Shown: one piece after another, positions 4,234 through 38,420 of the stretch
How the letters are laid out: every line of letters begins with the position of its first letter
Position numbering within the stretch: position 1 is the stretch's first letter
Assembly (NCBI GenBank): GCA_902515775.1
Contig: CABXVU010000004.1
Span: 2,746-66,745 of the forward strand
Length of the DNA: 64,000 nucleotides
Reading direction: 5' to 3'
Source of the DNA: an uncultured SAR86 cluster bacterium
GTDB taxonomy: Bacteria; Pseudomonadota; Gammaproteobacteria; Magnimaribacterales; D2472
Notes under the pieces: model-generated
Database searches by the model: none
What the model saw: the letters and a program-made list of their open reading frames with translations, nothing else
Told to the model about the DNA's origin: nothing
Program-made: the position numbers and the translations under genes

Positions 4234-5547
4234 TTAACTAAAACCAATGAGTTGGCTATATAAAATTAGGAATGCCATGGAAACTTGTAAGATCAAAGTG
4301 ATCCATAAAATCATCTTTGTAACTGGTTTGGGCTGCAATTCCATGCTTAATTTACTTGTAAGATATATAGCACCTATATTTATTATTGGAAGACCAACTG
4401 CTGCCCAAATTCCTGCGATCAATAATAGAGTGATTGGATTAGGAAGCAAAAAATAAGCAATGCAAGAAAATAAGGGTACAACTAATGCAATAATTTTAAT
4501 TAAATGCTTGCGGGTATTTTTTTGCTCATCAACAAATCCAATTGAGATTAAATAGTCTGAAATAGTTCTTGTAAATGCTGCAGTCCCTGAGAGTAGAGTA
4601 GAAAAAAGAACAAAGAAGGCGAGAGGAATAAAAAACCATTTGGCCCAGGTTCCTAAGATAGAGGTAAACATATTCAAGAGAGTTTGAATAATATCGCCAT
4701 CTGGTGGAGGATATAAACCCAATGTATTTAAGACAGCTGCACCTAAAAGAAAAAATGGAAGAGTGCCAATGGTTACAAAAAAGACTGTTGCCCAAACATC
4801 TGTTTGCATGACTTTAATCCATGCTTTCAGTTGGTTTAAATCATCGCCATGTTTGGCATAGCCTTTTTCTAGACACCAGTAAGTATATGCCATAATTTCA
4901 CCGTAACTGATTCCAGTGAAACCAAAAACTGCTAAAGCCAGTGCTGCATGTTCAAATGGAAATGTAAACGAAAAGCCGCCTAGAATTTGAGAGCCAGTAA
5001 TTGCATATGGAGTAGATTGCATTGCAATAGCGATCACCAGTGTAACCACTGAAAAAAAGAAAACCATGCCGAGAAGAAGTTTCTCCAGTGTTTGATAAGT
5101 TCCAAGATATAAAATAAACCAGGTAATAAAACATGCTGCTATAACCCATGTTTCTACGCTAAATATCGGTACCATCATGTGCCCAGCTTCTGCAACAGCT
5201 CCTGCAAGACCGCCCATGCCTGCAACAGAGGGCACTACACCTATAAACATAAACCAAACTAGCCAAGAGGCTTGTTTACCTCTGAAATTTGTTTTTGGTC
5301 CAGGCATATCTGAAAAAGCTTCTAAAAAAGTCTTATTTGTAGCAATTACATATCGACTTATTTCAGCTTGAATTAGTGGTTTGCTCCAAAGACTTAATAA
5401 AAGCCACCAAAGTAAGGCAAAGCCAGTTGCAGCACCAAGCAATGGCGATAAAGCAATTGAACCGCTCCCCACAACACTGCCAGTTACAATAATGCTAGGC
5501 CCAATAAATTTTAAACGCTGTATTAAAGTAGATGGTGTTTTATTCAT
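4234..5547 (-). CDS. Nramp-like polytopic membrane transporter
   Basis: 437 aa with about 11 TM helices. The N-terminal GPSIIVTGSVVGSGSI...LLW segment resembles Nramp/MntH-type transporters. Family call is from memory. Confidence 0.5.
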   Translation of the reverse strand: MNKTPSTLIQRLKFIGPSIIVTGSVVGSGSIALSPLLGAATGFALLWWLLLSLWSKPLIQAEISRYVIATNKTFLEAFSDMPGPKTNFRGKQASWLVWFMFIGVVPSVAGMGGLAGAVAEAGHMMVPIFSVETWVIAACFITWFILYLGTYQTLEKLLLGMVFFFSVVTLVIAIAMQSTPYAITGSQILGGFSFTFPFEHAALALAVFGFTGISYGEIMAYTYWCLEKGYAKHGDDLNQLKAWIKVMQTDVWATVFFVTIGTLPFFLLGAAVLNTLGLYPPPDGDIIQTLLNMFTSILGTWAKWFFIPLAFFVLFSTLLSGTAAFTRTISDYLISIGFVDEQKNTRKHLIKIIALVVPLFSCIAYFLLPNPITLLLIAGIWAAVGLPIINIGAIYLTSKLSMELQPKPVTKMILWITLILQVSMAFLILYSQLIGFS

Positions 5548-21528: not shown

Positions 21529-22449
21529 TTAAAAGTCTAGTGCATCAACAATTTTCCTAATTTCTTTTATGTGAGAAGTTGTTGTTCTGCAACAGCCGCC
21601 TATCACCGAAGCTCCTTTAGTAATCCATTCGGAAACAAACTCTCTATACTCTAAATGATTGATATGTTGATGATTGTGATAATGCCATTCTTCAGAGTCA
21701 GTAACAAAACCCTCTAACTTATTTTTTTTATATATAGAGGAGTTTGCATATATACCAAAACTTTTTTCTTTTTTAAGTTTATCGATTGCCATGCTCGCAG
21801 TATCTGCGTGTACACAATTTACTAGTTGACAATCGACATTTAATTTTAGCCCTTCATCAATTGCAAGATCTAATAACTCTGTGCTTGGGAGTCTGTTAAG
21901 TTTATTTCCCCTTGTTGTCCAACTTAACCAAACTCGGTCTGAAAAATTTTTAGCAGTTGATGCTGCAATAGTGCCCTCATAAATTGATGCCATTGTTTCA
22001 CAGATAATTAAATCTACATCATCTTTGTAAATTTCGCCTAAGGTTGCATAAAACTTTTTTAATTTTTTTTCTTTTGCACTTAAATCAGGCCTAAAGGTTA
22101 TGTGGATTGGTGGAAAGCAACCAGCGATCTTTGTATTTGCTCCAGTTTCAATAACAGCTTCTTTGCATAATTCAAGTGATTTTTTTGCAAGATCTTCATA
22201 TGAAGGAGCCTTTGGCTCTCTAATAAGTAATTCTGGGGTGGCCTGATAATTTGATGTGGTAATTACATCAGCTCCCGCTTCAATGTTATCAACATGTATT
22301 TGTTTAATAACTTCTGGCTTATGTATTAAACAATGTGCTGACCAAATAGAAGTTTTAAAACTTGGGAGGTATTCGCCTCTATTTTCAAGCTCAGTGCCCA
22401 AGGCTGAATCAAGTATTAATGGTTTTTTAATTTTCATTTTTAAAGACAT
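21529..22449 (-). CDS. Homocysteine S-methyltransferase (MmuM/BHMT-like)
   Basis: 306 aa with a Pfam-S-methyl_trans-like layout, the C-terminal zinc ligand motif GGCCRTT, and an AGGAGG RBS. Confidence 0.8.
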   Translation of the reverse strand: MSLKMKIKKPLILDSALGTELENRGEYLPSFKTSIWSAHCLIHKPEVIKQIHVDNIEAGADVITTSNYQATPELLIREPKAPSYEDLAKKSLELCKEAVIETGANTKIAGCFPPIHITFRPDLSAKEKKLKKFYATLGEIYKDDVDLIICETMASIYEGTIAASTAKNFSDRVWLSWTTRGNKLNRLPSTELLDLAIDEGLKLNVDCQLVNCVHADTASMAIDKLKKEKSFGIYANSSIYKKNKLEGFVTDSEEWHYHNHQHINHLEYREFVSEWITKGASVIGGCCRTTTSHIKEIRKIVDALDF

Positions 22450-22533
22450 TCACACCTCCTTTATTTGCTGAACGCCATATCTTTTTTCCACCTTGCCGGA
22501 GTTGGCAGGTTGGAGAGGAAATAAATCCTTCTC
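22450..22533 (-). promoter_or_regulatory. Structured GC-rich 5' leader of the homocysteine methyltransferase gene (candidate riboswitch-like element)
   Basis: Two adjacent hairpins: 22513-22533 (gagagga/tccttctc) and 22488-22513 (ccaccttgcc/ggcaggttgg). A CCUCU-containing strand could alternatively pair with the AGGAGG SD at 22455-22460. Confidence 0.3.
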
Positions 22534-22575
22534 ATGATATATAGTCCGAATTTTATCAAAAATTTAAAGAATTTG

Positions 22576-29906: not shown

Positions 29907-30593
29907 TCATCGCCTTGATAGAATAACGATCCAACGACCAAGGTTTAAAATGTCGGCTAGCGCAGCCGAAACATAGGTAAGGGCCGCTGCCCTCAGAATG
30001 CTGCTAACTGCTCTTTCGTTTGACTGCGATACGTAATTCCCCTCCCTTAATATAGGAAGAGCCTTGGAAAAACTTGCATCAAATTCAATTGGCAGAGTCA
30101 CCGCATGAACCATCATGCGAGCGATAAATCCGGATAGCCCAACGATAAGCAATAAAGAAAATGGCATTGGATGCCGTGTAATAATACCGATCACTGGCGA
30201 TAAAGAGATAATTAAAGCACTCCAACGGGCCACCTTATCAATAACGGGTACCATCTTTGTTCTAGTAGCCAGACGTTTATCACCTTGCTGATCCTGAATG
30301 GCATGTCCAACCTCATGTGCGGCAATTGCAATTGCTGTTAACGATTTGGATTCATAGTGCTCTCGCAAAAGCCTAACTTTTTTTTCAATTGGATCATAAT
30401 GATCTCCCAGCTCAGTTACTTCGACCGTCACATCTTTTAAAGAAAATCGCTCAATCAAATGCTTTGCAAGTTCTCCCCCAGTGCCTGGCATTTCAGGCTT
30501 TACAGTTGAATACCTCTTCATAACCAACTTCACCCATAAAGATGGCCCAAATATTAGTGCTAGAACTATGAGCGCGCCGGCTGCTAAAACCAT
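29907..30593 (-). CDS. Membrane zinc metallopeptidase (YugP / Zn_peptidase_2-like)
   Basis: 228 aa with HEVGHAIQ, flanking TM helices and an AGGAG RBS. Confidence 0.75.
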   Translation of the reverse strand: MVLAAGALIVLALIFGPSLWVKLVMKRYSTVKPEMPGTGGELAKHLIERFSLKDVTVEVTELGDHYDPIEKKVRLLREHYESKSLTAIAIAAHEVGHAIQDQQGDKRLATRTKMVPVIDKVARWSALIISLSPVIGIITRHPMPFSLLLIVGLSGFIARMMVHAVTLPIEFDASFSKALPILREGNYVSQSNERAVSSILRAAALTYVSAALADILNLGRWIVILSRR

Positions 30594-30678
30594 GTTTGAT
30601 ACTCCTAAAATTTATTCTGCAAACGAAACAAATTTGCAACTATAAAGTTTATATAGTGATTTAATTTTATTTTAAAAG

Positions 30679-31476
30679 TTATCCATGTTTTTTTACTAAG
30701 TTTATCGCCCACTTTATTACATTTGGATTTTTCTCAGTATCAAAAATGAATTCTTGCCCAAACCCTTTATAGAAGATTCTAGATTCCTTCTCATTCTCCC
30801 ACTGCATTCTATTTAAAAATAATCCTTCTGTATTTGAAAAATATTCTGAGGGCAGCTTCCATCTAGATCGTGTTTTGTTTGCTTCGGTCAGAATTAAATC
30901 ATCATGTGTCTTTTTAAATAAACCGTGGCCCCTGTCAAAAACCTTTTTTTCATTTATCTCTAAAGTTTTTTTTCCTACATAGATAGTATTATTTGAAAAT
31001 TTAGAGGTGTCTCCAAATCCATGAGGATGAGCAATGTTCTTTTCTTTGAGATATGTGATAATTGCCTCTGATCCTTCTATGATTTCTTTTATTTGTAACC
31101 ATCCAAACAGATGATGTAAATCTCTTCCTTTAATTGAAAAGTTCTTAAACCATCCAAAGAATAAAAATAAGTCTCCTGGACCTACACTATTATTTTTTAA
31201 TTCGGTTTGAGAGGAACTTGCTTGACCGAAAATACCGATATCTTCATTTAGAAGTGGGTCATTGTGACAATAATCTGAAGGTTTGATCTTAGATGACACC
31301 TCTTTTAATAATTCTATGCCAGATGTTCCACAAAAGTTTAAATCTTCGTACTTTTTTGGAGAGGGATGATCTTGAGGAATCGGTATAGAAAAAATTCTTC
31401 CATCACTGAATATAGGTGAGGCGCTCCCCCCTGCTTTAGCATCAAATCCTTTTCTGCTTAGAATTATTCTTTTCAA
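30679..31476 (-). CDS. Conserved-looking hypothetical protein (no confident family)
   Basis: 265 aa with a TTG start. Soluble. Distinctive blocks: ILSRKGFDAKAGGSASPIF, GDLFLFFGWF, HHLFGWLQIKE. Confidence 0.5.
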   Translation of the reverse strand: MKRIILSRKGFDAKAGGSASPIFSDGRIFSIPIPQDHPSPKKYEDLNFCGTSGIELLKEVSSKIKPSDYCHNDPLLNEDIGIFGQASSSQTELKNNSVGPGDLFLFFGWFKNFSIKGRDLHHLFGWLQIKEIIEGSEAIITYLKEKNIAHPHGFGDTSKFSNNTIYVGKKTLEINEKKVFDRGHGLFKKTHDDLILTEANKTRSRWKLPSEYFSNTEGLFLNRMQWENEKESRIFYKGFGQEFIFDTEKNPNVIKWAINLVKKHG

Positions 31477-31507
31477 CTTATGAAATTAAAAAAACATGCC
31501 TATAAAT

Positions 31508-31525
31508 CAATTCCACCGTAACGGA
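31508..31525 (-). repeat. glmS 3'-end relic D (encodes SVTVE-L; stop lost)
   Basis: Plus strand caattccaccgtaacgga. The reverse complement reads tcc gtt acg gtg gaa ttg. It is followed at 31532-31542 by ttgaaatcact, the same 11-mer that sits beside the live glmS end at 35221-35231. Confidence 0.55.
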
Positions 31526-31559
31526 TTAAATTTGAAATCACTTTCATTGTCTTAATATA

Positions 31560-31850
31560 TTAAGTTATAAGCTTCGGTATTATTCCTAGTTGAGCCAGAA
31601 TACCAAAGATAATTAGCAATATAATGCTAGTGAGCGTTTTAAGGTTCTTCTGTTTAATAAATTCAAATAAGTCGTCTTCTATAAATTTTCTTATACAATC
31701 ATCAGCTTTACCCATCAACTTAACAGCTTTTCTTGTCCATTTGTCAGTCACATCAATTATTAACAAAGAAAATCCTGCAATGATAAGCCACACAAAACCA
31801 TTAAGAGTCATGTCGATTAGCCAACCTATAATCACCCAATTTATTTCCAT
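31560..31850 (-). CDS. Small membrane protein (module 1)
   Basis: 96 aa with N- and C-terminal TM helices. It is the only ORF between relics D and E. Confidence 0.45.
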   Translation of the reverse strand: MEINWVIIGWLIDMTLNGFVWLIIAGFSLLIIDVTDKWTRKAVKLMGKADDCIRKFIEDDLFEFIKQKNLKTLTSIILLIIFGILAQLGIIPKLIT

Positions 31851-31881
31851 TATTAAGCCCTAAAAAGCTAATTTTATTTTT

Positions 31882-31899
31882 CTACTCCGCGGTCATAGA
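31882..31899 (-). repeat. glmS 3'-end relic E (encodes SMTAE-stop)
   Basis: Plus strand ctactccgcggtcataga. The reverse complement reads tct atg acc gcg gag tag. The next codons (..S L I Y) share the taaact (S-L) block with relic A. Confidence 0.55.
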
Positions 31900-32018
31900 G
31901 TAGATTAAACTAACTACCTTTATTAAACCTCATGACTATTATACTTACAGTACTTTTTTTTAGACTTTTTCCTATCCATTTTTTTAAAAGAAAAGTGTTT
32001 TTCTAGTATCATATCGCC

Positions 32019-33134
32019 ATGAAAATAAATTCATTCACACCGCCAAATAGGATTTTAATGGGTCCCGGTCCATCTGATGTTTGCGACAGAGTTTTGGAGG
32101 CTATGGCTAGACCAACTATTGGTCATCTCGATCCTATTTTTATAACAATGATGGATGAAACAAAACAGTTACTTCAATATGCATTTCAAACACAGAATGA
32201 GTTAACTTTTGCCTTATCAGCTCCTGGTATGGCAGGAATGGAATCTTGCTTTGCAAATCTTGTTGAGCCTGATGATAAGGTAATTATTGCTAAAAATGGG
32301 TTCTTTGGCGAAAGAATGAAAGAGAATGTTGAGCGATTTGGCGGAATACCAATAGTTATTGATGATGAATGGGGAACAAAAGTAGACTTAAATAAAATTG
32401 AATCAGCCTTAAATGAACATAAGGATGCAAAAATTGTTGCTTCAGTTCATGCTGAAACCTCTACCGGGGCTCTTACAGATCCAAAATCAATTACAAAATT
32501 AGCACATGACCACGGATGTTTATCAATTGTAGATACTGTAACTGGTTTGGCTGGAGTTCCTTTAAAAGTAGATGAATGGGGAATTGACGCAATTTATTCT
32601 GGTACACAAAAGTGTTTGTCCGCTTCTCCTGGTTTATCGCCAATTAGTTTTAGTAATGCTGCAAAGGAAAAGATTAAGAATAGAAAATCAAAAGTAAAGA
32701 GTTGGTTTCATGATTTAAACTTAATCATGTCATATTGGGAAGGAGAAGGAGGCCGATCCTATCATCATACTGCACCAATAAATTCATTATATGGACTACA
32801 TGAAGCCTTGATTATGTTAAATGAAGAAGGCCTAGAAAATTCATGGAAAAGACATAAAGAGAACCATCTTCAACTCCGAGAGGGCTTAGAAAAATTAAAT
32901 ATTAAATTTTTAGTAAAAGAAGAGGACAGATTACCTCAATTAAATGCTATCTATATTCCTGATGGTGTAAATGATCTTGAATCAAGACAAAGACTGTTAA
33001 ACGAATTTAATCTCGAAATTGGAGCTGGTCTTGGAGTTCTTGCAGGAAAAGTTTGGCGAATTGGACTTATGGGACAATCTTCCAATAAAAAGAATATTGA
33101 ATATTGTTTAAACTCTCTTGCGGAAGTAATTTAA
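32019..33134 (+). CDS. Class V aminotransferase (alanine-glyoxylate / serine-pyruvate aminotransferase type)
   Basis: 371 aa with the PLP-lysine block SGTQKCLSASPGLSP and an N-terminal MGPGPS pattern. Confidence 0.8.
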   Translation: MKINSFTPPNRILMGPGPSDVCDRVLEAMARPTIGHLDPIFITMMDETKQLLQYAFQTQNELTFALSAPGMAGMESCFANLVEPDDKVIIAKNGFFGERMKENVERFGGIPIVIDDEWGTKVDLNKIESALNEHKDAKIVASVHAETSTGALTDPKSITKLAHDHGCLSIVDTVTGLAGVPLKVDEWGIDAIYSGTQKCLSASPGLSPISFSNAAKEKIKNRKSKVKSWFHDLNLIMSYWEGEGGRSYHHTAPINSLYGLHEALIMLNEEGLENSWKRHKENHLQLREGLEKLNIKFLVKEEDRLPQLNAIYIPDGVNDLESRQRLLNEFNLEIGAGLGVLAGKVWRIGLMGQSSNKKNIEYCLNSLAEVI

Positions 33135-33291
33135 AAATTATTAAATTCGCCATCTTCCAACCACTGTTAAAACCTGCTTTACCTTAACAGAGTATCCATA
33201 ACCAAATTCACATTTTTTATATATTTTTGCAAATAAAATATAACCAATAAGATCGGAATTAACCTTAATTTTTTAATTTATTTTGAATCTT

Positions 33292-33942
33292 CTATTTAAT
33301 CTGATTTCCATTAAAGTCATACTCCTCGATCACCCTAAGTATAGCTCCGTTTTGATATTCTATTTTTGACTTTAGTTGTCCGTTTTGATGGTATGTCACG
33401 GATATACCATGCAATTCCTCATCGTTGTTATATACTTCCTTCGATGCTATTTGACCGTTGTCATAATATGAAAATGATGTAAGAGTAACGGTTACGCCAT
33501 TTTTAACATTTTCTTTCCAGGATACTTGACCATATTCATAGCCAATCCATTCGCCCTCGTCAACACCATCAACTCTATTTCCTTCCATGGATGGAAAGCC
33601 TTCCATAAACTCGATATATTTTCCGTGCTCAAGTCCATTTTTATATCCAGTCTTAAATGAAAATAAGGTCCCACAGCCCTCATATCCCTCAAATGGTCCA
33701 TGAAGAAGCCCCCTTTTATATGACCCTGCCTCTATTGCACAAAATCCATATTCATCCTCATAGGTTACGAATCTTCCAGAAAAAGGAGTATTAGTATTTA
33801 CCTGATATTTCAAGCCCTGTCTTTCAACAAGTGATGACGAATTTATAGATTTATCTGCATATTTGATATACAAGGCTTCATTAGCCTGTAAATTTAGTAT
33901 TAAAAAAGCAAATAAAAACACATTTCTTGAAAGTATCTTCAT
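33292..33942 (-). CDS. Secreted MORN-variant repeat (YwqK-like) protein
   Basis: Repeats of the Y-x-NG-x-x-x-G type (YKNGLEHGKY, YHQNGQLKS, YQNG). I prefer the second ATG (MKILSRNVFLFAFLILNLQA) because a GGGGAA SD lies inside the first five codons of the 221-aa track ORF. Confidence 0.6.
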   Translation of the reverse strand: MKILSRNVFLFAFLILNLQANEALYIKYADKSINSSSLVERQGLKYQVNTNTPFSGRFVTYEDEYGFCAIEAGSYKRGLLHGPFEGYEGCGTLFSFKTGYKNGLEHGKYIEFMEGFPSMEGNRVDGVDEGEWIGYEYGQVSWKENVKNGVTVTLTSFSYYDNGQIASKEVYNNDEELHGISVTYHQNGQLKSKIEYQNGAILRVIEEYDFNGNQIK

Positions 33943-33999
33943 ATTTTCCCCACACAACTTAATAGTACTTTTATTTATTCTAACGCTATCTGTTAGATA

Positions 34000-34026
34000 T
34001 TTAAAATTACTCCGCCGTGACTGATT
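34000..34026 (-). repeat. glmS 3'-end relic A (27 nt, 26/27 identical to the live glmS end; encodes SVTAE-stop)
   Basis: tttaaaattactccGccgtgactgatt here versus tttaaaattactccAccgtgactgatt at 35233-35259. Confidence 0.85.
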
Positions 34027-34048
34027 GAAATAAACTCAACCTGTTTTT

Positions 34049-34318
34049 TTATAATTCAAAGGTCTCGTCTAGAATAAACATCTCAACACCGCCTGTTATT
34101 TTGTCCTCTGACATTGCCTCTGCAGTTGATGGATCATTAAATATTCTTACAAACTTATCAACATCATTTGTTTCAAAAACAGCAATTACTGTTTTATCAT
34201 TTGCTGTCCCCATATGTGCAAGAGAGACGCCCTGACTTTTAAATAAATCATCGTGAGTCTTAAACTTTTCTCTCCAGTGATCAACGCTCTCAACTTCTGC
34301 TCTTACTGCTATTAACAT
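34049..34318 (-). CDS. Small soluble hypothetical protein (ferredoxin-like alpha+beta pattern)
   Basis: 89 aa with an AAGGAG RBS upstream. I recognised no family. Confidence 0.5.
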   Translation of the reverse strand: MLIAVRAEVESVDHWREKFKTHDDLFKSQGVSLAHMGTANDKTVIAVFETNDVDKFVRIFNDPSTAEAMSEDKITGGVEMFILDETFEL

Positions 34319-34349
34319 TTAGTATCTCCTTAATAAATCATTGTTAATT

Positions 34350-34542
34350 ACTTTTTTATTCATAAACCTCTCCTAAGCAAAATAAAATTAATAATGCGGT
34401 TTAGAAAGGTTAATAATGCCACAAACCACCATTTGAATTGACCTCCATCTTCAAGAATAGATGTTAAGACAACTCCTAGAAAAACAGAATGAATAAACCA
34501 TCTTTTTTTTAAATATTTTACATTCTGTAAAAAGGACGTATT
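34350..34542 (-). pseudogene. Start-less 63-codon open frame encoding a two-TM-like peptide (possible gene remnant or non-canonical start)
   Basis: My own translation: NTSFLQNVKYLKKRWFIHSVFLGVVLTSILEDGGQFKWWFVALLTFLNRIINFILLRRGL-stop. There is no in-frame ATG/GTG/TTG; the only near-cognate codon is ATT at 34494. Confidence 0.25.
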
Positions 34543-34614
34543 TTAGAATTCTCAGTACTTATATAATAAATTCAAAACTTCTCACTATAATTTTATCAAC
34601 CAATAAATCTTTCT

Positions 34615-34632
34615 CTATTCAACTGTGACTGA
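34615..34632 (-). repeat. glmS 3'-end relic C (encodes SVTVE-stop with different codons)
   Basis: Plus strand ctattcaactgtgactga. The reverse complement reads tca gtc aca gtt gaa tag. Confidence 0.6.
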
Positions 34633-34636
34633 GTGT

Positions 34637-34652
34637 TTTTAAACAGTGATTT
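34637..34652. repeat. Left arm of the perfect 16-bp inverted repeat bracketing the ZnR-SWIM module
   Basis: ttttaaacagtgattt is the exact reverse complement of aaatcactgtttaaaa at 35224-35239. Confidence 0.9.
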
Positions 34653-34665
34653 GATTTTTTGCAAT

Positions 34666-35010
34666 TCATTTTTTCATTACAGATTTAAATTTTTGAAGAA
34701 CTATTTTCTTTTTGGCAGCAATTTCTTTTTTTATTTCTGCCTCTTGTTTTTTAATTTCTTCTAACTCAATCCACGCTTCTTCTAAATCACTTCCTGGTAA
34801 CCAAGATTTAATTTCATTAATTTGCGAATCATCTAGACCTATATACTTTTGTTTTTTCCCCTCAAAAACACTCATCCAGTGTTTGCAATGAGTTCCCATC
34901 GATCCTGCAGGACAATCACAAATGCATTTCAAATTTGTGCCACTCAAACTTATTGTTATGTTGTATGGTTGTGCTGCACTTCCTTGAACCTGATAACTAA
35001 TTTCTTTCAT
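34666..35010 (-). CDS. SWIM zinc-finger protein with C-terminal coiled coil
   Basis: 114 aa with the SWIM signature CxCx(n)CxH (CICDCPAGSMGTHCKH) after a beta-rich N-terminus, then a K/E-rich helix. Spaced 2 nt from the upstream ORF. Confidence 0.65.
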   Translation of the reverse strand: MKEISYQVQGSAAQPYNITISLSGTNLKCICDCPAGSMGTHCKHWMSVFEGKKQKYIGLDDSQINEIKSWLPGSDLEEAWIELEEIKKQEAEIKKEIAAKKKIVLQKFKSVMKK

Positions 35011-35012
35011 CT

Positions 35013-35219
35013 TTAAACATCTCTAGAGCAGAATCTACAAACTGTCGCATCTTTTTTTATATGCTCTTTGCAAAACTGGCACACTTTGTAACCACTTGGA
35101 CTTGCTAGTTGTTGGAAAAATACAACAACAAGGTGAAGCATTATTGATAAAAGTACTGCTGAACCCCATACGGAAATCATATATAAATGAAGTACTAAAA
35201 AAATGCCATGTATTATCAT
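35013..35219 (-). CDS. Small two-TM protein with C-terminal zinc ribbon
   Basis: 68 aa with two hydrophobic helices followed by CQFCKEHIKKDATVCRFC. Confidence 0.5.
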   Translation of the reverse strand: MIIHGIFLVLHLYMISVWGSAVLLSIMLHLVVVFFQQLASPSGYKVCQFCKEHIKKDATVCRFCSRDV

Positions 35220-35223
35220 CTTG

Positions 35224-35239
35224 AAATCACTGTTTAAAA
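35224..35239. repeat. Right arm of the 16-bp inverted repeat (abuts the glmS stop codon)
   Basis: aaatcactgtttaaaa, immediately next to the glmS TAA (35240-35242). Confidence 0.9.
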
Positions 35240-35259
35240 TTACTCCACCGTGACTGATT
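35233..35259 (-). repeat. Live glmS 3' end (copy B of the 27-nt repeat)
   Basis: tttaaaattactccaccgtgactgatt: the last 17 coding nt of glmS (K-SVTVE), the stop, and 7 nt downstream. Confidence 0.9.
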
Positions 35260-37066
35260 TAGCTAAGTTCCTTGGTTGATCTAAATCAGTGCCTCTTTGG
35301 CATGCAACTTGATATGCAAGAATTTGAAGTGGAATGGTATAAATAATTGGGGCTAACAATTCGCTACATTCTGGCATTTGAATGTATTCACCTCTTTCGA
35401 TTTTAATTTTTGAATTTTCTCCACCAAATACATATAGCGTGCCGCCCCTTGCCTTTACCTCCTCTAAGTTGGAGACTAGTTTTTCAGTTAAAGTGTTTTC
35501 AGGGGATAATGCCACCACTGGAATTTGATCATCGACCAATGCCAATGGCCCGTGTTTCAGCTCTCCTGCTGGGTAAGCCTCAGCGTGAATGTATGAAATT
35601 TCTTTCAGTTTCAGTGCGCCTTCTTGAACAATTGGAAAAAACATTCCCCTTCCTAGGAATAAAGCATTGTGTTTATCAGCTATATTAGGAACGATCCTCA
35701 TGATCTCATTTGATAATTTCAATGTCTTATCGATTATCTCTGGCAAATTTCTTAATTCGTTTACAAGTTTTTTTCTTAATTTTTTATCTTTATTTAAGCT
35801 TTTTGCAATAGACATGGCTAACAACATTAAACCTGCCAGCTGAGTAGTAAATGCCTTTGTTGATGCAACGCCAATTTCTGGGCCTGCATTAGTAAAAAGA
35901 ACATGCTCTGATTCTCTAGCCAACGAGCTGGTTGGAACGTTACAGATTGACAATGTGCTTAAATAGTTTTTCTCTTTTGCGTATTTGAGGGCAGCCAAAG
36001 TATCTGCGGTTTCTCCGGATTGTGAAATGGTAACAAACAATGTGCCTTCTTCTACAAGAGGCTCTCTATATCTATACTCACTTGCAAAATCTACATAACA
36101 TGGAATTTTAGCTATTCGCTCAAACCAAAACCTTCCTACTTTGCCTGCATGTAAGCTTGTTCCACATGCAACAAACTGAATTCTTTTAATCTTACTAAAA
36201 AGCTCTGATGAGCCTAAACCAAATATATTATCTAATACGTCCTCATCTCCAAGTTTCCCATTTATGGTATTGGCAACAGCATCAGGCTGTTCATATATTT
36301 CTTTCTCCATAAAGTGAGAATATTTTCCTTTAGTAACTGTATTAACTGCTATGTCTATTTCAGTTACATCTCTTTTTACAGGGGAACTCTTTCCGTCGAA
36401 CACTTGATAACTTTGCTTAGTTATTTCTGCAACATCGCCATCTTCAAGAAATACAAACTCATTGGTAAGTTGTGATAAAGCTAAGGGGTCCGAAGCAGCA
36501 AAATTTTCCTCTAAGCCTAACCCAATCAATAATGGGCTTTTGTTTCTTGCAACAACTAATCTGTTTTTATTTTTAATATGAATGGCCGCTATGGCGTAAG
36601 CGCCATCAAGTTCTTTTATAGCGTCATGCATGGCCGACAGCAAATCGCCGCTTGATTGTATGTGTTGATGAAGTAAGTGTGCTATGACCTCTGAGTCAGT
36701 TTCAGATTGAAAAGCATATCCGACCTTTTTTAATTTTTCTATAAGCTCAAGGTAGTTTTCTATAATTCCATTGTGAACAATGTGAACCTCTCCACTTGAT
36801 GCGTGTGGGTGTGCATTTTCTTTAGAAGGTTGACCGTGAGTTGCCCAACGAGTGTGAGCAATTCCAAGTTTGCTTTTTGGCCGATGCTCAATCATCCCAT
36901 CTTCGAGCAAACTTACTTTTCCCAAAGTTCTTAAATTAAAAATACTGTCTTTTTGATGGAGAGCTATACCTGCTGAGTCATAACCACGATACTCCATTTT
37001 ATGAAGGCCTTGAACTAATAACTTTCCTACGTTGCGAGATGATGCCGCCCCTATAATTCCACACAT
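35240..37066 (-). CDS. glmS: Glutamine--fructose-6-phosphate aminotransferase
   Basis: 608 aa with the N-terminal MCGIIGA nucleophile, SIS domains and the C-terminal KSVTVE. Confidence 0.97.
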   Translation of the reverse strand: MCGIIGAASSRNVGKLLVQGLHKMEYRGYDSAGIALHQKDSIFNLRTLGKVSLLEDGMIEHRPKSKLGIAHTRWATHGQPSKENAHPHASSGEVHIVHNGIIENYLELIEKLKKVGYAFQSETDSEVIAHLLHQHIQSSGDLLSAMHDAIKELDGAYAIAAIHIKNKNRLVVARNKSPLLIGLGLEENFAASDPLALSQLTNEFVFLEDGDVAEITKQSYQVFDGKSSPVKRDVTEIDIAVNTVTKGKYSHFMEKEIYEQPDAVANTINGKLGDEDVLDNIFGLGSSELFSKIKRIQFVACGTSLHAGKVGRFWFERIAKIPCYVDFASEYRYREPLVEEGTLFVTISQSGETADTLAALKYAKEKNYLSTLSICNVPTSSLARESEHVLFTNAGPEIGVASTKAFTTQLAGLMLLAMSIAKSLNKDKKLRKKLVNELRNLPEIIDKTLKLSNEIMRIVPNIADKHNALFLGRGMFFPIVQEGALKLKEISYIHAEAYPAGELKHGPLALVDDQIPVVALSPENTLTEKLVSNLEEVKARGGTLYVFGGENSKIKIERGEYIQMPECSELLAPIIYTIPLQILAYQVACQRGTDLDQPRNLAKSVTVE

Positions 37067-37067
37067 A

Positions 37068-38420
37068 TTATTTTTTGTTCTTTGCCCAGTCTTCTTTGAT
37101 AACTTGTTTACCTCGACCTACAGCCAATGCATTGTCAGGTACATCTTTTGTAATTACAGAGCCGGCTCCTACATAAGCGCCCTTACCAATATTAACTGGT
37201 GCAACCAAGGAAGAGTTTGTGCCAATGAAACTATCTTCACCAATAGAAGTGTTATGCTTATTTGTTCCATCGTAATTGCATGTAATTGTTCCAGCGCCAA
37301 CATTTGTTTTATTACCAATGTTTGCATCGCCTAAGTAGGCTAAATGATTGGCTTTGGCGCCATCTCCAAGTTTAGTTTTTTTAGTCTCAACAAAATTACC
37401 AATTTTGGCATTATTACCTATCTCTGACCCCTCCCTAATGCGGGCATATGGACCAATGTTGCAATTCGAACCAACTGAAGCTGATGAAAGATGACTAAAT
37501 GATTCTATGATCGAGTTATCTCCAATGAAAACATCTTGTAAAACGACATTTGATTTAATAGTAACGTTATTGCCAAAGGTAACATCGCCTTCCAAAATAA
37601 CATTGACATCAATAGAACAATCTTTTCCAGCGACGACTTTGCCACGAACGTCAACACGAGTTTTATCAATAAGTGTTATTCCTTGTTCTAATAATTTTTT
37701 AGCGCTCATTTTTCTTAAAATTAATTCTAGCTCATGTAATTCATGCTTATTGTTTGCCCCCAACACTTCTGCATGATTTGCTTGAATACATTTTATTTTA
37801 ACTCCTTTTCCAGAAAGTATCTCCACCAAGTCTGTAAGATAATATTCATTAGCTGAATTTTGGTTCTTAATTTCTTCTAAAGCAGGTCTAAGCAAACTTC
37901 CATCAATTAATAAAATACCTGTAAAAACCTCTTCAATTTTAAGTTCGTCTTCTGATGCATCTTTTTGTTCAATAATTTTTAAAGCTAATTTTTGCCCATT
38001 TGTAATCACCCTGCCGTAGCCGGTTGGATCATTTAATTGCATAGTTAGGAGCGTGCACTCGTATCCAGAGTTTATAAGTCCCTCTATAGTTTTGGAGCTA
38101 ATCAATGGAACATCACCATATAGAATTAATATTTTTTCATCATCCTTAATCAAATGCGAAGCCATTTTGACTGCATGTGCTGTTCCTAGCTGATTATCTT
38201 GATCTGCTGTTTTTATATTATGGTCGATTTTTGCTATATGAGTTTTTAAGATATTTTTTTGATGGCCAACAATAACAGTTATATTTTCACTGCTTTCTTT
38301 TGCAGTTTGAATAACATGCGAAATTAAAGTTTGCCCCCCAAGGGGTTGCATAACCTTTGGCAAATTGGTGTTCATTCGAGTGCCCTTACCAGCTGCTAGG
38401 ATAATAGTATGAATATTCAA
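37068..38420 (-). CDS. glmU: Bifunctional UDP-N-acetylglucosamine pyrophosphorylase / GlcN-1-P acetyltransferase
   Basis: 450 aa with LAAGKGTRM and C-terminal hexapeptide repeats. Spaced 1 nt from glmS. Confidence 0.95.
   Translation of the reverse strand: MNIHTIILAAGKGTRMNTNLPKVMQPLGGQTLISHVIQTAKESSENITVIVGHQKNILKTHIAKIDHNIKTADQDNQLGTAHAVKMASHLIKDDEKILILYGDVPLISSKTIEGLINSGYECTLLTMQLNDPTGYGRVITNGQKLALKIIEQKDASEDELKIEEVFTGILLIDGSLLRPALEEIKNQNSANEYYLTDLVEILSGKGVKIKCIQANHAEVLGANNKHELHELELILRKMSAKKLLEQGITLIDKTRVDVRGKVVAGKDCSIDVNVILEGDVTFGNNVTIKSNVVLQDVFIGDNSIIESFSHLSSASVGSNCNIGPYARIREGSEIGNNAKIGNFVETKKTKLGDGAKANHLAYLGDANIGNKTNVGAGTITCNYDGTNKHNTSIGEDSFIGTNSSLVAPVNIGKGAYVGAGSVITKDVPDNALAVGRGKQVIKEDWAKNKK

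What the first reader, a model, noticed from the sequence alone, without database searches (positions are those of the whole stretch)
31508..35259. Ladder of five glmS 3'-end copies divides the 3.7 kb downstream of glmS into four small modules, with no recombinase in sight
Reading the minus strand, the 18 nt that end glmS recur four more times downstream. All copies share the same orientation and all lie in intergenic gaps.
- B, 35240-35257: tca gtc acg gtg gag taa (SVTVE*), the live glmS end.
- C, 34615-34632: tca gtc aca gtt gaa tag (SVTVE*).
- A, 34007-34024: tca gtc acg gcg gag taa (SVTAE*).
- E, 31882-31899: tct atg acc gcg gag tag (SMTAE*).
- D, 31508-31525: tcc gtt acg gtg gaa ttg (SVTVEL).
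Most differences sit at synonymous third positions (Ser tca/tct/tcc, Val gtc/gtt/gtg, Thr acg/aca/acc, Glu gag/gaa, stop taa/tag). This implies each copy was once a functional glmS terminus under purifying selection. That is the signature expected when elements integrate into the 3' end of a gene and bring their own replacement terminus, stacking up in tandem.
The four modules are:
- 31526-31881: a 96-aa TM protein.
- 31900-34006: a class V aminotransferase on the opposite strand plus a MORN-repeat protein.
- 34025-34614: an 89-aa protein plus a start-less TM frame.
- 34633-35239: a zinc-ribbon TM protein plus a SWIM protein.
The modules are only 0.36 to 2.1 kb and none encodes an integrase or transposase. 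glmS is the classical Tn7 target, but Tn7 does not duplicate the gene end. I do not know of a described mechanism that fits this pattern.
Basis: seen in the sequence. Interest (0 to 1): 0.8.

Follow-up and report, generated by a model that had tools for sequence, protein, structure and literature searches.

The report
Serine-recombinase gene-cassette array behind glmS
The repeated glmS gene-ends are real: they are the junctions of small mobile gene cassettes that stack up behind glmS in the abundant marine SAR86 bacteria, most likely inserted by large serine recombinases that are carried on related 6-9 kb circular elements and are absent from this window.

Summary
The degenerate 18-mer, allowing one mismatch, occurs five times in the window. 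All five lie downstream of glmS on its strand, against 0.07 expected by chance.

It is a clade-wide feature. Of 64 SAR86 glmS loci with at least 3 kb downstream, 56 carry such ladders: 187 copies on the glmS strand, against 1-2 in each control compartment.

Each unit is a cassette (median 681 bp) with its own terminal inverted repeats. Once circularised, it would carry a roughly 54-bp dyad centred on the invariant AC of the Thr codon. Population linkage puts the exchange point at the same AC.

Cassettes are 90-100% identical between species whose glmS genes are only 60-77% identical, so they move horizontally.

The missing recombinase exists in relatives. Two families of large serine recombinase sit at the right end of 6-9 kb elements integrated directly after glmS. 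A free 6.8-kb circle with the predicted attP was recovered.

The mechanism is therefore of a described type: SCCmec at rlmH, Dehalococcoides ssrA islands and tandem accretion. The glmS target, the SAR86 host and the integron-sized recombinase-less cassettes appear undescribed.

Trans-mobilisation of the cassettes is inferred, not shown.

The parts
35240..37066 (-). glmS (608 aa), preceded by glmU and the atp operon. Its last 18 nt are the live junction.
   Evidence: ORF. 80 SAR86 homologous loci. Protein ends ...RNLAKSVTVE*.
35240..35257 (-). Copy B, the live glmS end TCAGTCACGGTGGAGTAA. It is an attL-type junction: glmS half up to AC, then the first cassette's half.
   Evidence: 31.3 bits. 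Exchange point at bases 7-8.
34633..35239 (-). Cassette 1, an intact mobile unit. It holds a 68-aa zinc-ribbon membrane protein (35013-35219) and a 114-aa SWIM-like protein (34666-35010). Left arm 35224-35239 and right arm 34637-34652 form a perfect 16-nt inverted repeat, TTTTAAACAGTGATTT.
   Evidence: (21 of 27 dyad matches). The cassette is 98.8% identical (607 nt) to L037 cassette 0, while glmS is 67.7% identical at nucleotide level. It is absent from L011 and L001.
34615..34632 (-). Copy C, TCAGTCACAGTTGAATAG.
   Evidence: 25.2 bits. Its downstream flank agaaagattt..ggttg is the type that follows the live glmS end in L016 and L024.
34343..34614 (-). ORF-less remnant with no match in the 11 relatives compared. 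The junction that should separate it from the next cassette is eroded.
   Evidence: no blastn match in those 11 loci. In L011 the homologous 89-aa cassette is preceded by its own copy at +525.
34025..34342 (-). Cassette with the 89-aa protein (34049-34318).
   Evidence: 97% identical to L011 positions 551-884, which is L011's second cassette.
34007..34024 (-). Copy A, TCAGTCACGGCGGAGTAA. With its flanks it is a 34-nt repeat, 88% identical to B.
   Evidence: family D5; 25.0 bits.
31900..34006 (-). Older cassette with a MORN-repeat protein (33292-33957, minus strand) and a class-V aminotransferase (32019-33134, plus strand). Terminal inverted repeat is partly eroded (15 of 27).
   Evidence: Pfam. 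Dyad count. Collinear with L001; the aminotransferase part is shared with L011, L008 and L006.
31882..31899 (-). Copy E, TCTATGACCGCGGAGTAG, a decaying junction.
   Evidence: 12.2 bits. Homologous flanks surround clearer copies in L001, L011 and L008.
31526..31881 (-). Unit with the 96-aa membrane protein (31560-31850). This gene family occurs in 27 loci, mostly just beyond the last detectable copy, so it looks like an old, largely fixed cassette.
   Evidence: Cluster 0. In L007 it is likewise followed by a glmS-end copy.
31508..31525 (-). Copy D, TCCGTTACGGTGGAATTG, with the stop codon lost.
   Evidence: 20.4 bits. The L011 deletion of Nmad3 starts after base 7 of this copy.
30663..31507 (-). 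Nmad3-domain gene (30679-31476). Present in the window and L001, absent in L011.
   Evidence: Pfam PF18754. Presence and absence.
30612..30662 (-). Eroded junction: right-arm-like AAATCACTATATAAAC, a decayed glmS-end copy, then left arm TTTCGTTTGCAGAATAA, in front of the Zn-peptidase gene (29907-30593).
   Evidence: The homologous site in L008 still reads CCAGTAACTGAAGAGCAC.

Best explanation
The ladder is an array of site-specifically integrated cassettes at the 3' end of glmS.

What the data show:
- The attachment site is the last codons of glmS (TCN GTN ACN GTN GAR stop).
- Strand exchange lies at or next to the invariant AC of the Thr codon.
- An incoming circle carries a roughly 54-bp imperfect palindrome: right arm, about 4 nt, TCNGTN-AC-NGTNGARTAR, left arm.
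- Integration leaves glmS intact, because the circle supplies the last 10 nt and the stop codon. The previous terminus is pushed downstream as a relic.

What is inferred:
- The enzymes are large serine recombinases of two related families (about 551 aa; about 568 aa plus a roughly 200-aa small serine recombinase).
- They are encoded on cryptic 6-9 kb elements that integrate at the same site and also occur as free circles.
- The small cassettes (0.2-2 kb, usually one gene, mostly co-oriented with glmS) encode no recombinase but keep a complete dyad. I infer that the recombinase moves them in trans, as non-autonomous elements.
- New units enter next to glmS. Older units move distally and their junctions decay. 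In this window the order from youngest to oldest is B/C, A, E/D, then 30612-30662.
For: Shown directly:
1. The ladder is clade-wide and strictly polar. There are 187 copies of at least 12 bits in 654 kb downstream on the glmS strand, against 2, 1 and 2 in the three control compartments. Of 64 loci with at least 3 kb downstream, 56 have copies, up to 9 per locus.
2. Cassettes have their own terminal inverted repeats. 41% score at least 10, against 4-5% for same-junction or random arm pairs.
3. In reconstructed circular junctions the best palindrome centre falls between bases 7 and 8 of the glmS-end copy in 112 of 186 cassettes. 64 have at least 18 of 27 matches, against 3 for junctions as they stand in arrays.
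4. Linkage agrees. Relics with the same right arm but a different left arm share base 3 (81%) and base 6 (55%), while bases 9-18 are at baseline. Relics with the same left arm show the reverse pattern.
5. There are 69 whole-cassette matches between species at 90-100% identity, while glmS is 60-77% identical. 52 of the 69 sit at a different rank in the array.
6. Recombinases are present in relatives. L050 has a 551-aa protein with Resolvase and Recombinase domains. Homologues sit directly after glmS as the last gene of an element in L081, L085 and L101.
7. The second family, with its small resolvase, is integrated after glmS in L106. It matches the A118 and TP901-1 serine integrase structures.
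8. In every contig that extends past the gene, the recombinase gene is followed by a right arm and a glmS-end copy about 7-50 nt after its stop.
9. One identical recombinase occurs in four contigs. The flanking sequence is identical through TCCGTTAC and then diverges.
10. A free form exists. L107 is a 6,824-bp contig with a 30-bp terminal overlap, and L108 is a circular permutation of it. Its attP is ATTCTCTGTTCGAAA-acac-TCTGTGACTGTCGAGTAG-TTTCGAACAGAGAAT.
11. L096 and L097 show the attP junction of the first family.
12. The arms of the window's cassette 1 (TTTTAAACAGTGATTT) are of the type carried by elements of the second family.
Against: - No recombinase was found in this window, nor in 79 of the 80 species-representative loci. 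The enzyme acting on this array is therefore unidentified.
- Trans-mobilisation of recombinase-less cassettes is inferred. No circular cassette junction was recovered.
- Canonical large serine integrases recombine only attP with attB. Stacking requires integration at a junction made of a glmS half and a cassette half.
- The linkage signal declines gradually toward the centre. It is not a sharp step, so a slightly wider exchange zone cannot be excluded.
- Arm sequences vary widely between cassettes. One enzyme may not recognise them all.
- Three of the window's four units have weak or no inverted repeats. They may now be immobile.
Confidence: 0.8

Rival explanations
1. The units are only decayed remnants of recombinase-bearing elements: cis-mobilizable elements or fossils. 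They do not move on their own. Sharing between species comes from transfer of larger segments followed by homologous recombination, or from co-excision with a neighbouring autonomous element.
For: - This is the accepted account for recombinase-less islands in Streptococcus and Dehalococcoides.
- L101 shows an element in decay, invaded by insertion sequences and with a frameshifted recombinase.
- L091 carries a 549-bp fragment of an element's left end as a 'cassette'.
- Most window units lack inverted repeats.
Against: - Cassette cargo is unrelated to the element genes. The 288 ORFs fall into 188 families, and no recombinase fragments were found.
- 60% of cassettes keep a dyad centred exactly on AC.
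- Single cassettes recur at different ranks with different neighbours, at 95-100% identity, across deep species divergence.
- Shared sequence at the junctions (the 18-nt copy plus arms) is short for homologous recombination.
Confidence: 0.15
2. An integron-like or Xer-like system. A tyrosine recombinase encoded elsewhere in the genome captures the cassettes, and the glmS-end copies act like attC or dif sites.
For: - Cassette size, one-gene content, orientation bias (244 against 44 ORFs) and extreme gene diversity resemble integron arrays.
- No recombinase is present locally.
Against: - The two arms at an array junction come from different cassettes and are not complementary. They become a palindrome only after circularisation. 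In an attC site both arms lie in one cassette and the crossover is at the edge.
- The only recombinases found linked to these sites are serine recombinases.
- No tyrosine recombinase was seen in any array or element examined.
Confidence: 0.04
3. Tn7-like transposition, or chance or slippage duplication of the gene end.
For: glmS is the classical Tn7 target.
Against: - No tnsABCD-like genes were found, and many units are only a few hundred bases.
- The gene end is duplicated, which Tn7 does not do.
- Chance is excluded.
- Copies differ in sequence and are bounded by cassette-specific arms, so they are not local slippage products.
Confidence: 0.01

Closest known systems
Dehalococcoides ssrA genomic islands (DsiB/DsiA; McMurdie et al. 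2011, PMC3146451)
   Same: - Multiple tandem islands lie downstream of a single-copy essential gene.
- They are bounded by about 20-bp direct repeats of that gene's 3' end.
- The integration module has a roughly 540-aa large serine recombinase plus a roughly 200-aa small one. The second SAR86 family has the same pairing.
- About half of the islands lack the module and are read as cis-mobilizable.
   Different: - The target is an RNA gene (ssrA), not the coding end of glmS.
- The integration module there lies adjacent to attL, on the reverse strand; here the recombinase is the last gene of the element, next to the distal junction.
- Cross-species cassette shuffling and per-unit dyads were not reported there.
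- Sequence relationship between DsiB and the SAR86 enzymes was not tested here.
SCCmec / enterococcal cassette chromosome (CcrAB large serine recombinases at rlmH)
   Same: - Insertion is into the 3' end of a conserved housekeeping gene.
- About 50-bp att repeats have dyad symmetry in attR and in the circular form.
- Composite arrays occur with several attR sites, and cargo is highly variable.
- From my own knowledge, not checked here: recombinase-less pseudo-SCC elements occur in the same arrays.
   Different: - The target gene and the host phylum differ.
- ECC elements are 21-78 kb, against a median of 0.7 kb here.
- Arrays hold a few elements rather than up to nine.
- Homology of the SAR86 enzymes to Ccr proteins was not tested.
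Integron gene-cassette arrays
   Same: - A fixed insertion point accumulates many promoter-poor, mostly single-gene, co-oriented cassettes of very diverse function.
- The cassettes encode no recombinase of their own.
- Arrays without a local recombinase exist.
   Different: - Integrons use a tyrosine recombinase, with folded single-stranded attC sites that lie wholly within one cassette.
- Here the site is a dyad split at its centre, so each array junction is a hybrid of two cassettes.
- The linked enzymes here are serine recombinases.
Tandem accretion of cis-mobilizable elements (ICESt1/ICESt3 family; reviewed in PMC5704250)
   Same: Elements that have lost integration genes but keep attL and attR accumulate in tandem at the 3' end of a target gene. 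They can be mobilised by a related integrase.
   Different: - That system uses tyrosine integrases and conjugative elements.
- Those units are decay products of large elements. They are not a large, diverse population of single-gene cassettes.
Tn7 at attTn7 (downstream of glmS)
   Same: The same landmark gene is used, and insertion is orientation-specific downstream of it.
   Different: - Tn7 uses a transposase and inserts beyond the stop codon with a 5-bp duplication (my own knowledge, not checked here).
- It does not copy the gene end.
- No Tns genes are present here.

Membership tests
Large-serine-recombinase integrative element | A recombinase with an N-terminal resolvase catalytic domain, a recombinase domain and a zinc-ribbon/coiled-coil region, encoded next to the attachment site | tested here: met
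   Met in related loci, not in the window. PF00239 and PF07508 hit L050, L081, L085, L102, L106 and L107. PF13408 is precomputed for many homologues. The second family matches A118 integrase 4KIS and the TP901-1 catalytic domain. In contigs that extend past the gene, its stop lies about 7-50 nt before the right arm and glmS-end copy. The window itself has none.
Large-serine-recombinase integrative element | An attP of about 50 bp with imperfect dyad symmetry around a central dinucleotide | tested here: met
   Free circle L107 has 15-nt perfect arms and a 22-nt spacer centred on A|C. The attP junctions of L096 and L097 span 54 bp. In 112 of 186 reconstructed cassette junctions the best palindrome centre lies between bases 7 and 8.
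Large-serine-recombinase integrative element | Crossover at the central dinucleotide | tested here: inconclusive
   Linkage switches between bases 6 and 9. An identical recombinase in four contexts diverges right after TCCGTTAC. Both agree with a 2-bp crossover at AC.
Large-serine-recombinase integrative element | Catalysis of attP x attB integration by the encoded enzyme | not testable with these tools
   Needs an in vivo or in vitro recombination assay.
SCC (staphylococcal/enterococcal cassette chromosome) | ccr-family recombinase genes and integration into rlmH (orfX) | tested here: not met
   The target here is glmS. Relationship of the enzymes to CcrA/B/C was not tested. Works like SCC; not a member.
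SCC (staphylococcal/enterococcal cassette chromosome) | Direct repeats containing the target gene's 3' end, inverted repeats at element termini, and composite arrays with several attR sites | tested here: met
.
Dehalococcoides ssrA-GI type | A large plus a small serine recombinase in one module, with tandem islands bounded by repeats of an essential gene's 3' end, some lacking the module | tested here: met
   A small resolvase (198-213 aa) overlaps the start of the 568-aa recombinase in L102, L106 and L107. The first family has a single recombinase. The target gene differs (ssrA against glmS), so this is an analogue; homology was not tested.
Integron | An intI tyrosine recombinase next to attI, and attC sites whose two arms lie within one cassette with the crossover at the site's edge | tested here: not met
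   No tyrosine recombinase was found in the window ORFs tested or in the arrays. Arms at one junction belong to two cassettes and are not complementary. No attC covariance model was available.
Tn7-like transposon | TnsABC(D) genes, with insertion downstream of the glmS stop without copying the gene end | tested here: not met
   No such genes were found in the window region or in the arrays. The gene end is copied at every junction.
Cis-mobilizable element / accretion | A unit flanked by attL- and attR-type sites with no integration genes, lying in tandem with related units at the target gene's 3' end | tested here: met
   All the window units fit. 186 such units occur in the relatives. Actual mobilisation was not tested.

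The most novel reading that the evidence does not exclude
SAR86 and relatives run a functional counterpart of the integron built on serine recombinases. A large pool of single-gene, recombinase-less cassettes each carries a complete attP-type dyad that mimics the glmS terminus. Recombinases supplied in trans by small episomes capture these cassettes next to glmS. They are expressed by read-through from glmS and exchanged freely between species. Several arm types would correspond to several recombinase specificities that share one chromosomal landing site.
Probability: 0.45. Interest if true: 0.85.

Novelty: new variant of a known kind. Interest (0 to 1): 0.7.

Why it matters
- SAR86 is among the most abundant heterotrophic bacteria of the surface ocean and has a small, streamlined genome. 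How such cells exchange genes is poorly understood.
- This locus appears to be a general gene-capture site for the clade. Cargo includes restriction-modification systems, HNH nucleases and many small membrane proteins.
- Cassettes are shared almost unchanged between species that are otherwise far apart.
- It extends the SCCmec and ssrA-island principle to a Gram-negative marine clade and to integron-sized units.
- It raises the same open question as integrons: how cassettes are born.
- It offers a natural set of related serine integrases with one conserved target and varied attP arms. That is of practical interest for genome engineering.

Tried and rejected
- Viral collection. No close relative of the L050 recombinase, no left-end motif of the first element family and no generic attP of the second family were found. 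There is no evidence that the elements are packaged in phage particles.
- Element genes. Pfam and PHROGs on the other genes of the 6-9 kb elements gave nothing beyond a weak precomputed REP_ORF2-G2P hit. The elements remain cryptic.
- Recombinase in this window. tblastn of seven recombinases from the first family against the window and all loci found no fragments outside the known elements. A recombinase pseudogene in this window is therefore rejected.
- Rfam. The only match in the window is a SAM-I/IV riboswitch at 22451-22545. This explains the weak 18-mer hit at 22483-22500 as chance.
- Terminators. The terminator scan found none in the intergenic gaps between glmS and the cassettes; its single hit (32439-32458, minus strand) lies inside the aminotransferase coding region. 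This is only a weak hint of read-through.
- Decay with rank. Copy score falls only slightly with rank (Spearman rho -0.13, p = 0.085). I do not claim a general decay gradient.
- Literature. I found no paper in the held library on SAR86 with glmS, islands, recombinases or cassettes. Misiura et al. 2013 on Ccr site choice is not held.
- Other contexts for the SWIM gene. The exact-sequence look-up gave one 625-bp Tara contig. It is a different array context, not a circle.

Full report
**Setting**

The window is a low-GC (about 34%) stretch near the replication origin of a SAR86 gammaproteobacterium. The atp operon, glmU (37068-38420) and glmS (35240-37066) lie on the minus strand. The closest relatives in the genome collection are SAR86 single-cell genomes, with GlmS 98% identical in L011 and 96% in L001.

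TCNGTNACNGYNGARTAR, allowing one mismatch, hits only these five sites in both strands of the window. Dinucleotide-preserving shuffles give 0.07 hits.

I built a weight matrix from the live glmS ends of the SAR86 loci plus the window's own end. It scores B 31.3, C 25.2, A 25.0, D 20.4 and E 12.2 bits. One unrelated hit of 12.6 bits lies inside a gene at 4893-4910. Mononucleotide shuffles give 0.26 hits of at least 12 bits per window. A and B share 30 of 34 nt. E is weak alone, but the same flanks surround clearer copies in L001, L011 and L008.

**It is a property of the clade**

I scanned 10 kb on each side of glmS in the SAR86-clade loci. There were 187 copies of at least 12 bits downstream on the glmS strand. 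The downstream opposite strand had 2, the upstream same strand 1 and the upstream opposite strand 2. Of 64 loci with at least 3 kb of downstream sequence, 56 have at least one relic. The maximum is nine and the median distance of the last relic is 2.5 kb.

**Anatomy of a unit**

- The 186 intervals between successive copies have a median length of 681 bp.
- ORFs inside arrays are co-oriented with glmS 244 to 44. Beyond the arrays the ratio is 529 to 196 (Fisher p = 6e-5).
- The 288 ORFs fall into 188 families, of which 143 are singletons.
- Cargo includes a type III restriction-modification pair, a C5 methylase, several HNH nucleases, an HSDR_N protein and DUF6607.

The flanks are structured. 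After each stop codon come about 5 nt and then a 10-12 nt arm. The reverse complement of that arm sits just before the next copy. Arms of the same cassette match with a score of at least 10 in 41% of cases, against 4-5% for arms at the same junction or for random pairs. Each cassette therefore has terminal inverted repeats, and each array junction is a hybrid of two cassettes.

**Where the exchange happens**

I joined each cassette's right end to its own left end in silico. In 112 of 186 cases the best palindrome centre falls between bases 7 and 8 of the 18-mer, the invariant AC. 64 cases have at least 18 of 27 matches, against 3 for junctions as found in the arrays.

Linkage gives the same answer independently:

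| Relic pairs compared | Base 3 | Base 6 | Base 9 | Base 12 | Base 15 | Base 18 |
|---|---|---|---|---|---|---|
| Same right arm, different left arm | 81% | 55% | 33% | 34% | 48% | 49% |
| Same left arm, different right arm | 31% | 29% | 54% | 64% | 83% | 87% |
| Baseline (neither arm shared) | 31% | 28% | 35% | 35% | 49% | 49% |

The first 8 nt of a relic therefore travel with the upstream cassette. The last 10 nt and the stop travel with the downstream cassette.

**Cassettes are mobile**

There are 69 whole-cassette matches between loci of different species, at 90-100% nucleotide identity. The glmS genes of the same pairs are 60-77% identical, a median excess of 23 points. 52 of the 69 sit at a different rank in the array.

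Comparison with close relatives:
- The window's first cassette is 98.8% identical to the first cassette of L037, whose glmS is 67.7% identical. It is absent from L011 and L001.
- The 89-aa cassette is shared only with L011.
- The segment from copy A onward is collinear with L001.
- L011 lacks the Nmad3 gene.

**The missing recombinase**

One of the 80 loci, L050, has a 6-kb insert directly after glmS. Its last gene is a 551-aa protein with Resolvase and Recombinase domains. Its stop lies about 25 nt before a right arm and a glmS-end copy.

Homologues are common in marine metagenomes. Their contexts are as follows:
- In L081 (Porticoccaceae-labelled), L085 (a SAR86 single-cell genome) and L101, the gene order is glmU, glmS, a 6.5-9 kb element with the recombinase last, then a glmS-end copy and, in L085 and L101, further copies.
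- One identical recombinase occurs in four contigs. The sequence is identical through TCCGTTAC and then differs.
- A metagenome scan for the element's conserved left-end motif gave 12 contigs. Seven have varied glmS alleles directly upstream.
- L096 and L097 join the recombinase 3' end to the left end through a 54-bp dyad. That is the attP junction of a circular or tandem form.

A second family came to light in L102. It is about 568 aa, 29% identical to the first, and preceded by an overlapping small resolvase of about 200 aa. Its element has a perfect 22-nt inverted repeat of the AACAGTGAATT type, which is the commonest arm type among the small cassettes. This family is also abundant. It matches the A118 and TP901-1 serine integrase structures. 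It is integrated directly after glmS in L106 with a 19-nt perfect inverted repeat.

This family was also recovered as a free circle. L107 has a 30-bp terminal overlap and L108 is a 100%-identical circular permutation. The attP is exactly as predicted: ATTCTCTGTTCGAAA, acac, TCTGTGACTGTCGAGTAG, TTTCGAACAGAGAAT. The arms of the window's cassette 1, TTTTAAACAGTGATTT at 35224-35239 and 34637-34652, are of this type.

**Interpretation**

*Shown:*
- a polar ladder of glmS-end copies;
- a dyad in each cassette;
- the exchange point at AC;
- horizontal transfer at the level of single cassettes;
- recombinase-bearing elements at the same site;
- a circular form carrying attP.

*Inferred:*
- these serine recombinases make the junctions;
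- the small cassettes are moved in trans;
- insertion is next to glmS.

In support of proximal insertion, 12 recombinase elements lie directly after glmS. Four left ends or elements lie further in: L090, L091 and L099, and the second-family element in L102, which lies behind a first-family element.

*Caveats:*
- Canonical serine integrases pair only attP with attB.
- No enzyme was found in this window.
- No cassette circle was recovered.
- Only cassette 1 of the window is intact: 21 of 27 dyad matches, against 15, 11 and 9 for the others.

**Comparison with what is known**

The closest described system is the Dehalococcoides ssrA island family. It has tandem islands bounded by 20-bp repeats of the ssrA end, a 540-aa serine recombinase plus a 200-aa one, and 15 islands without the module that are read as cis-mobilizable.

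SCCmec and the enterococcal cassette chromosome work the same way at rlmH. They have 50-bp att repeats with dyad symmetry and multiple attR sites. The accretion model for cis-mobilizable elements is reviewed in PMC5704250.

Integrons resemble these arrays in cassette size, orientation and diversity, but they fail the site-architecture test. Tn7 fails every test.

I found no paper in the held library that links SAR86 or glmS with such arrays.

**Verdict**

It is a new variant of a known kind. The mechanism is of the SCC and ssrA-island type. The target gene, the host clade and the dominance of integron-sized recombinase-less cassettes with intact attP dyads are new as far as I could check.

Noticed in passing
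window 22451-22545 (-): A SAM-I/IV riboswitch (RF01725, 70.5 bits) lies upstream of the homocysteine S-methyltransferase gene at 21529-22449. The weak 18-mer hit at 22483-22500 lies inside it and is unrelated to the ladder.
   Followed up: partly
window 31519 and 30713; L011 about 2,833 nt after the glmS stop: L011 lacks the Nmad3 gene. Its deletion starts right after base 7 of copy D (TCCGTTA|) and ends inside the Nmad3 3' end. That start is the inferred cleavage position, so this may be recombination with a pseudo-site.
   Followed up: partly
window 30612-30662 (-): An eroded junction (right-arm-like sequence, decayed glmS-end copy, left arm TTTCGTTTGCAGAATAA) lies in front of the Zn-peptidase gene. 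Genes that look like backbone, including the 96-aa membrane protein found in 27 loci, may be old fixed cassettes.
   Followed up: partly
L015, L035, L048, L053 (DUF6607, 365 aa); L029 (413-aa esterase-like ORF): These cassette ORFs run into the next glmS-end copy in frame. They end ...SVTVE* (L048: ...SVTEE*) and use its stop codon.
   Followed up: no
e.g. L035 +553, L036 +521, L043 +868, L048 +979 (positions after the glmS stop): One class of cassettes has a left arm like that of the first recombinase family. It is followed by a conserved small hairpin, TTTTAACC(T/C)CGCATTCTGCGGGGGTTT. It could be a terminator or a regulatory or replication element.
   Followed up: no
L050, L081, L085, L089-L100: Elements of the first family carry a conserved motif, CTTATTAATNCTCCATRARYTCTC, exactly 18 nt after the stop codon. 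In L050 it is followed by short repeats (ATAAGTTC). This may be an origin or a binding site. Precomputed Pfam hits give a weak REP_ORF2-G2P match for one element protein.
   Followed up: partly
L115 (625-bp Tara contig): The window's SWIM-like gene occurs alone between a left arm and a right arm plus glmS-end copy, with different neighbours. The two-gene cassette in the window therefore has a one-gene variant.
   Followed up: partly
L102: Two recombinase-bearing elements of different families lie in tandem. The first-family element is followed directly by a second-family element.
   Followed up: partly
L101: A glmS-linked element in a 1-Mb contig (its downstream genes match the Porticoccaceae-labelled L081/L084) is in decay. 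It is invaded by IS256-like and IS3-like transposases, and its recombinase is split into two ORFs.
   Followed up: no
L059 +1345 to +6242 after the glmS stop; L052: Defence genes ride in the arrays. L059 carries a complete type III restriction-modification pair, and L052 carries a C5 cytosine methylase.
   Followed up: no
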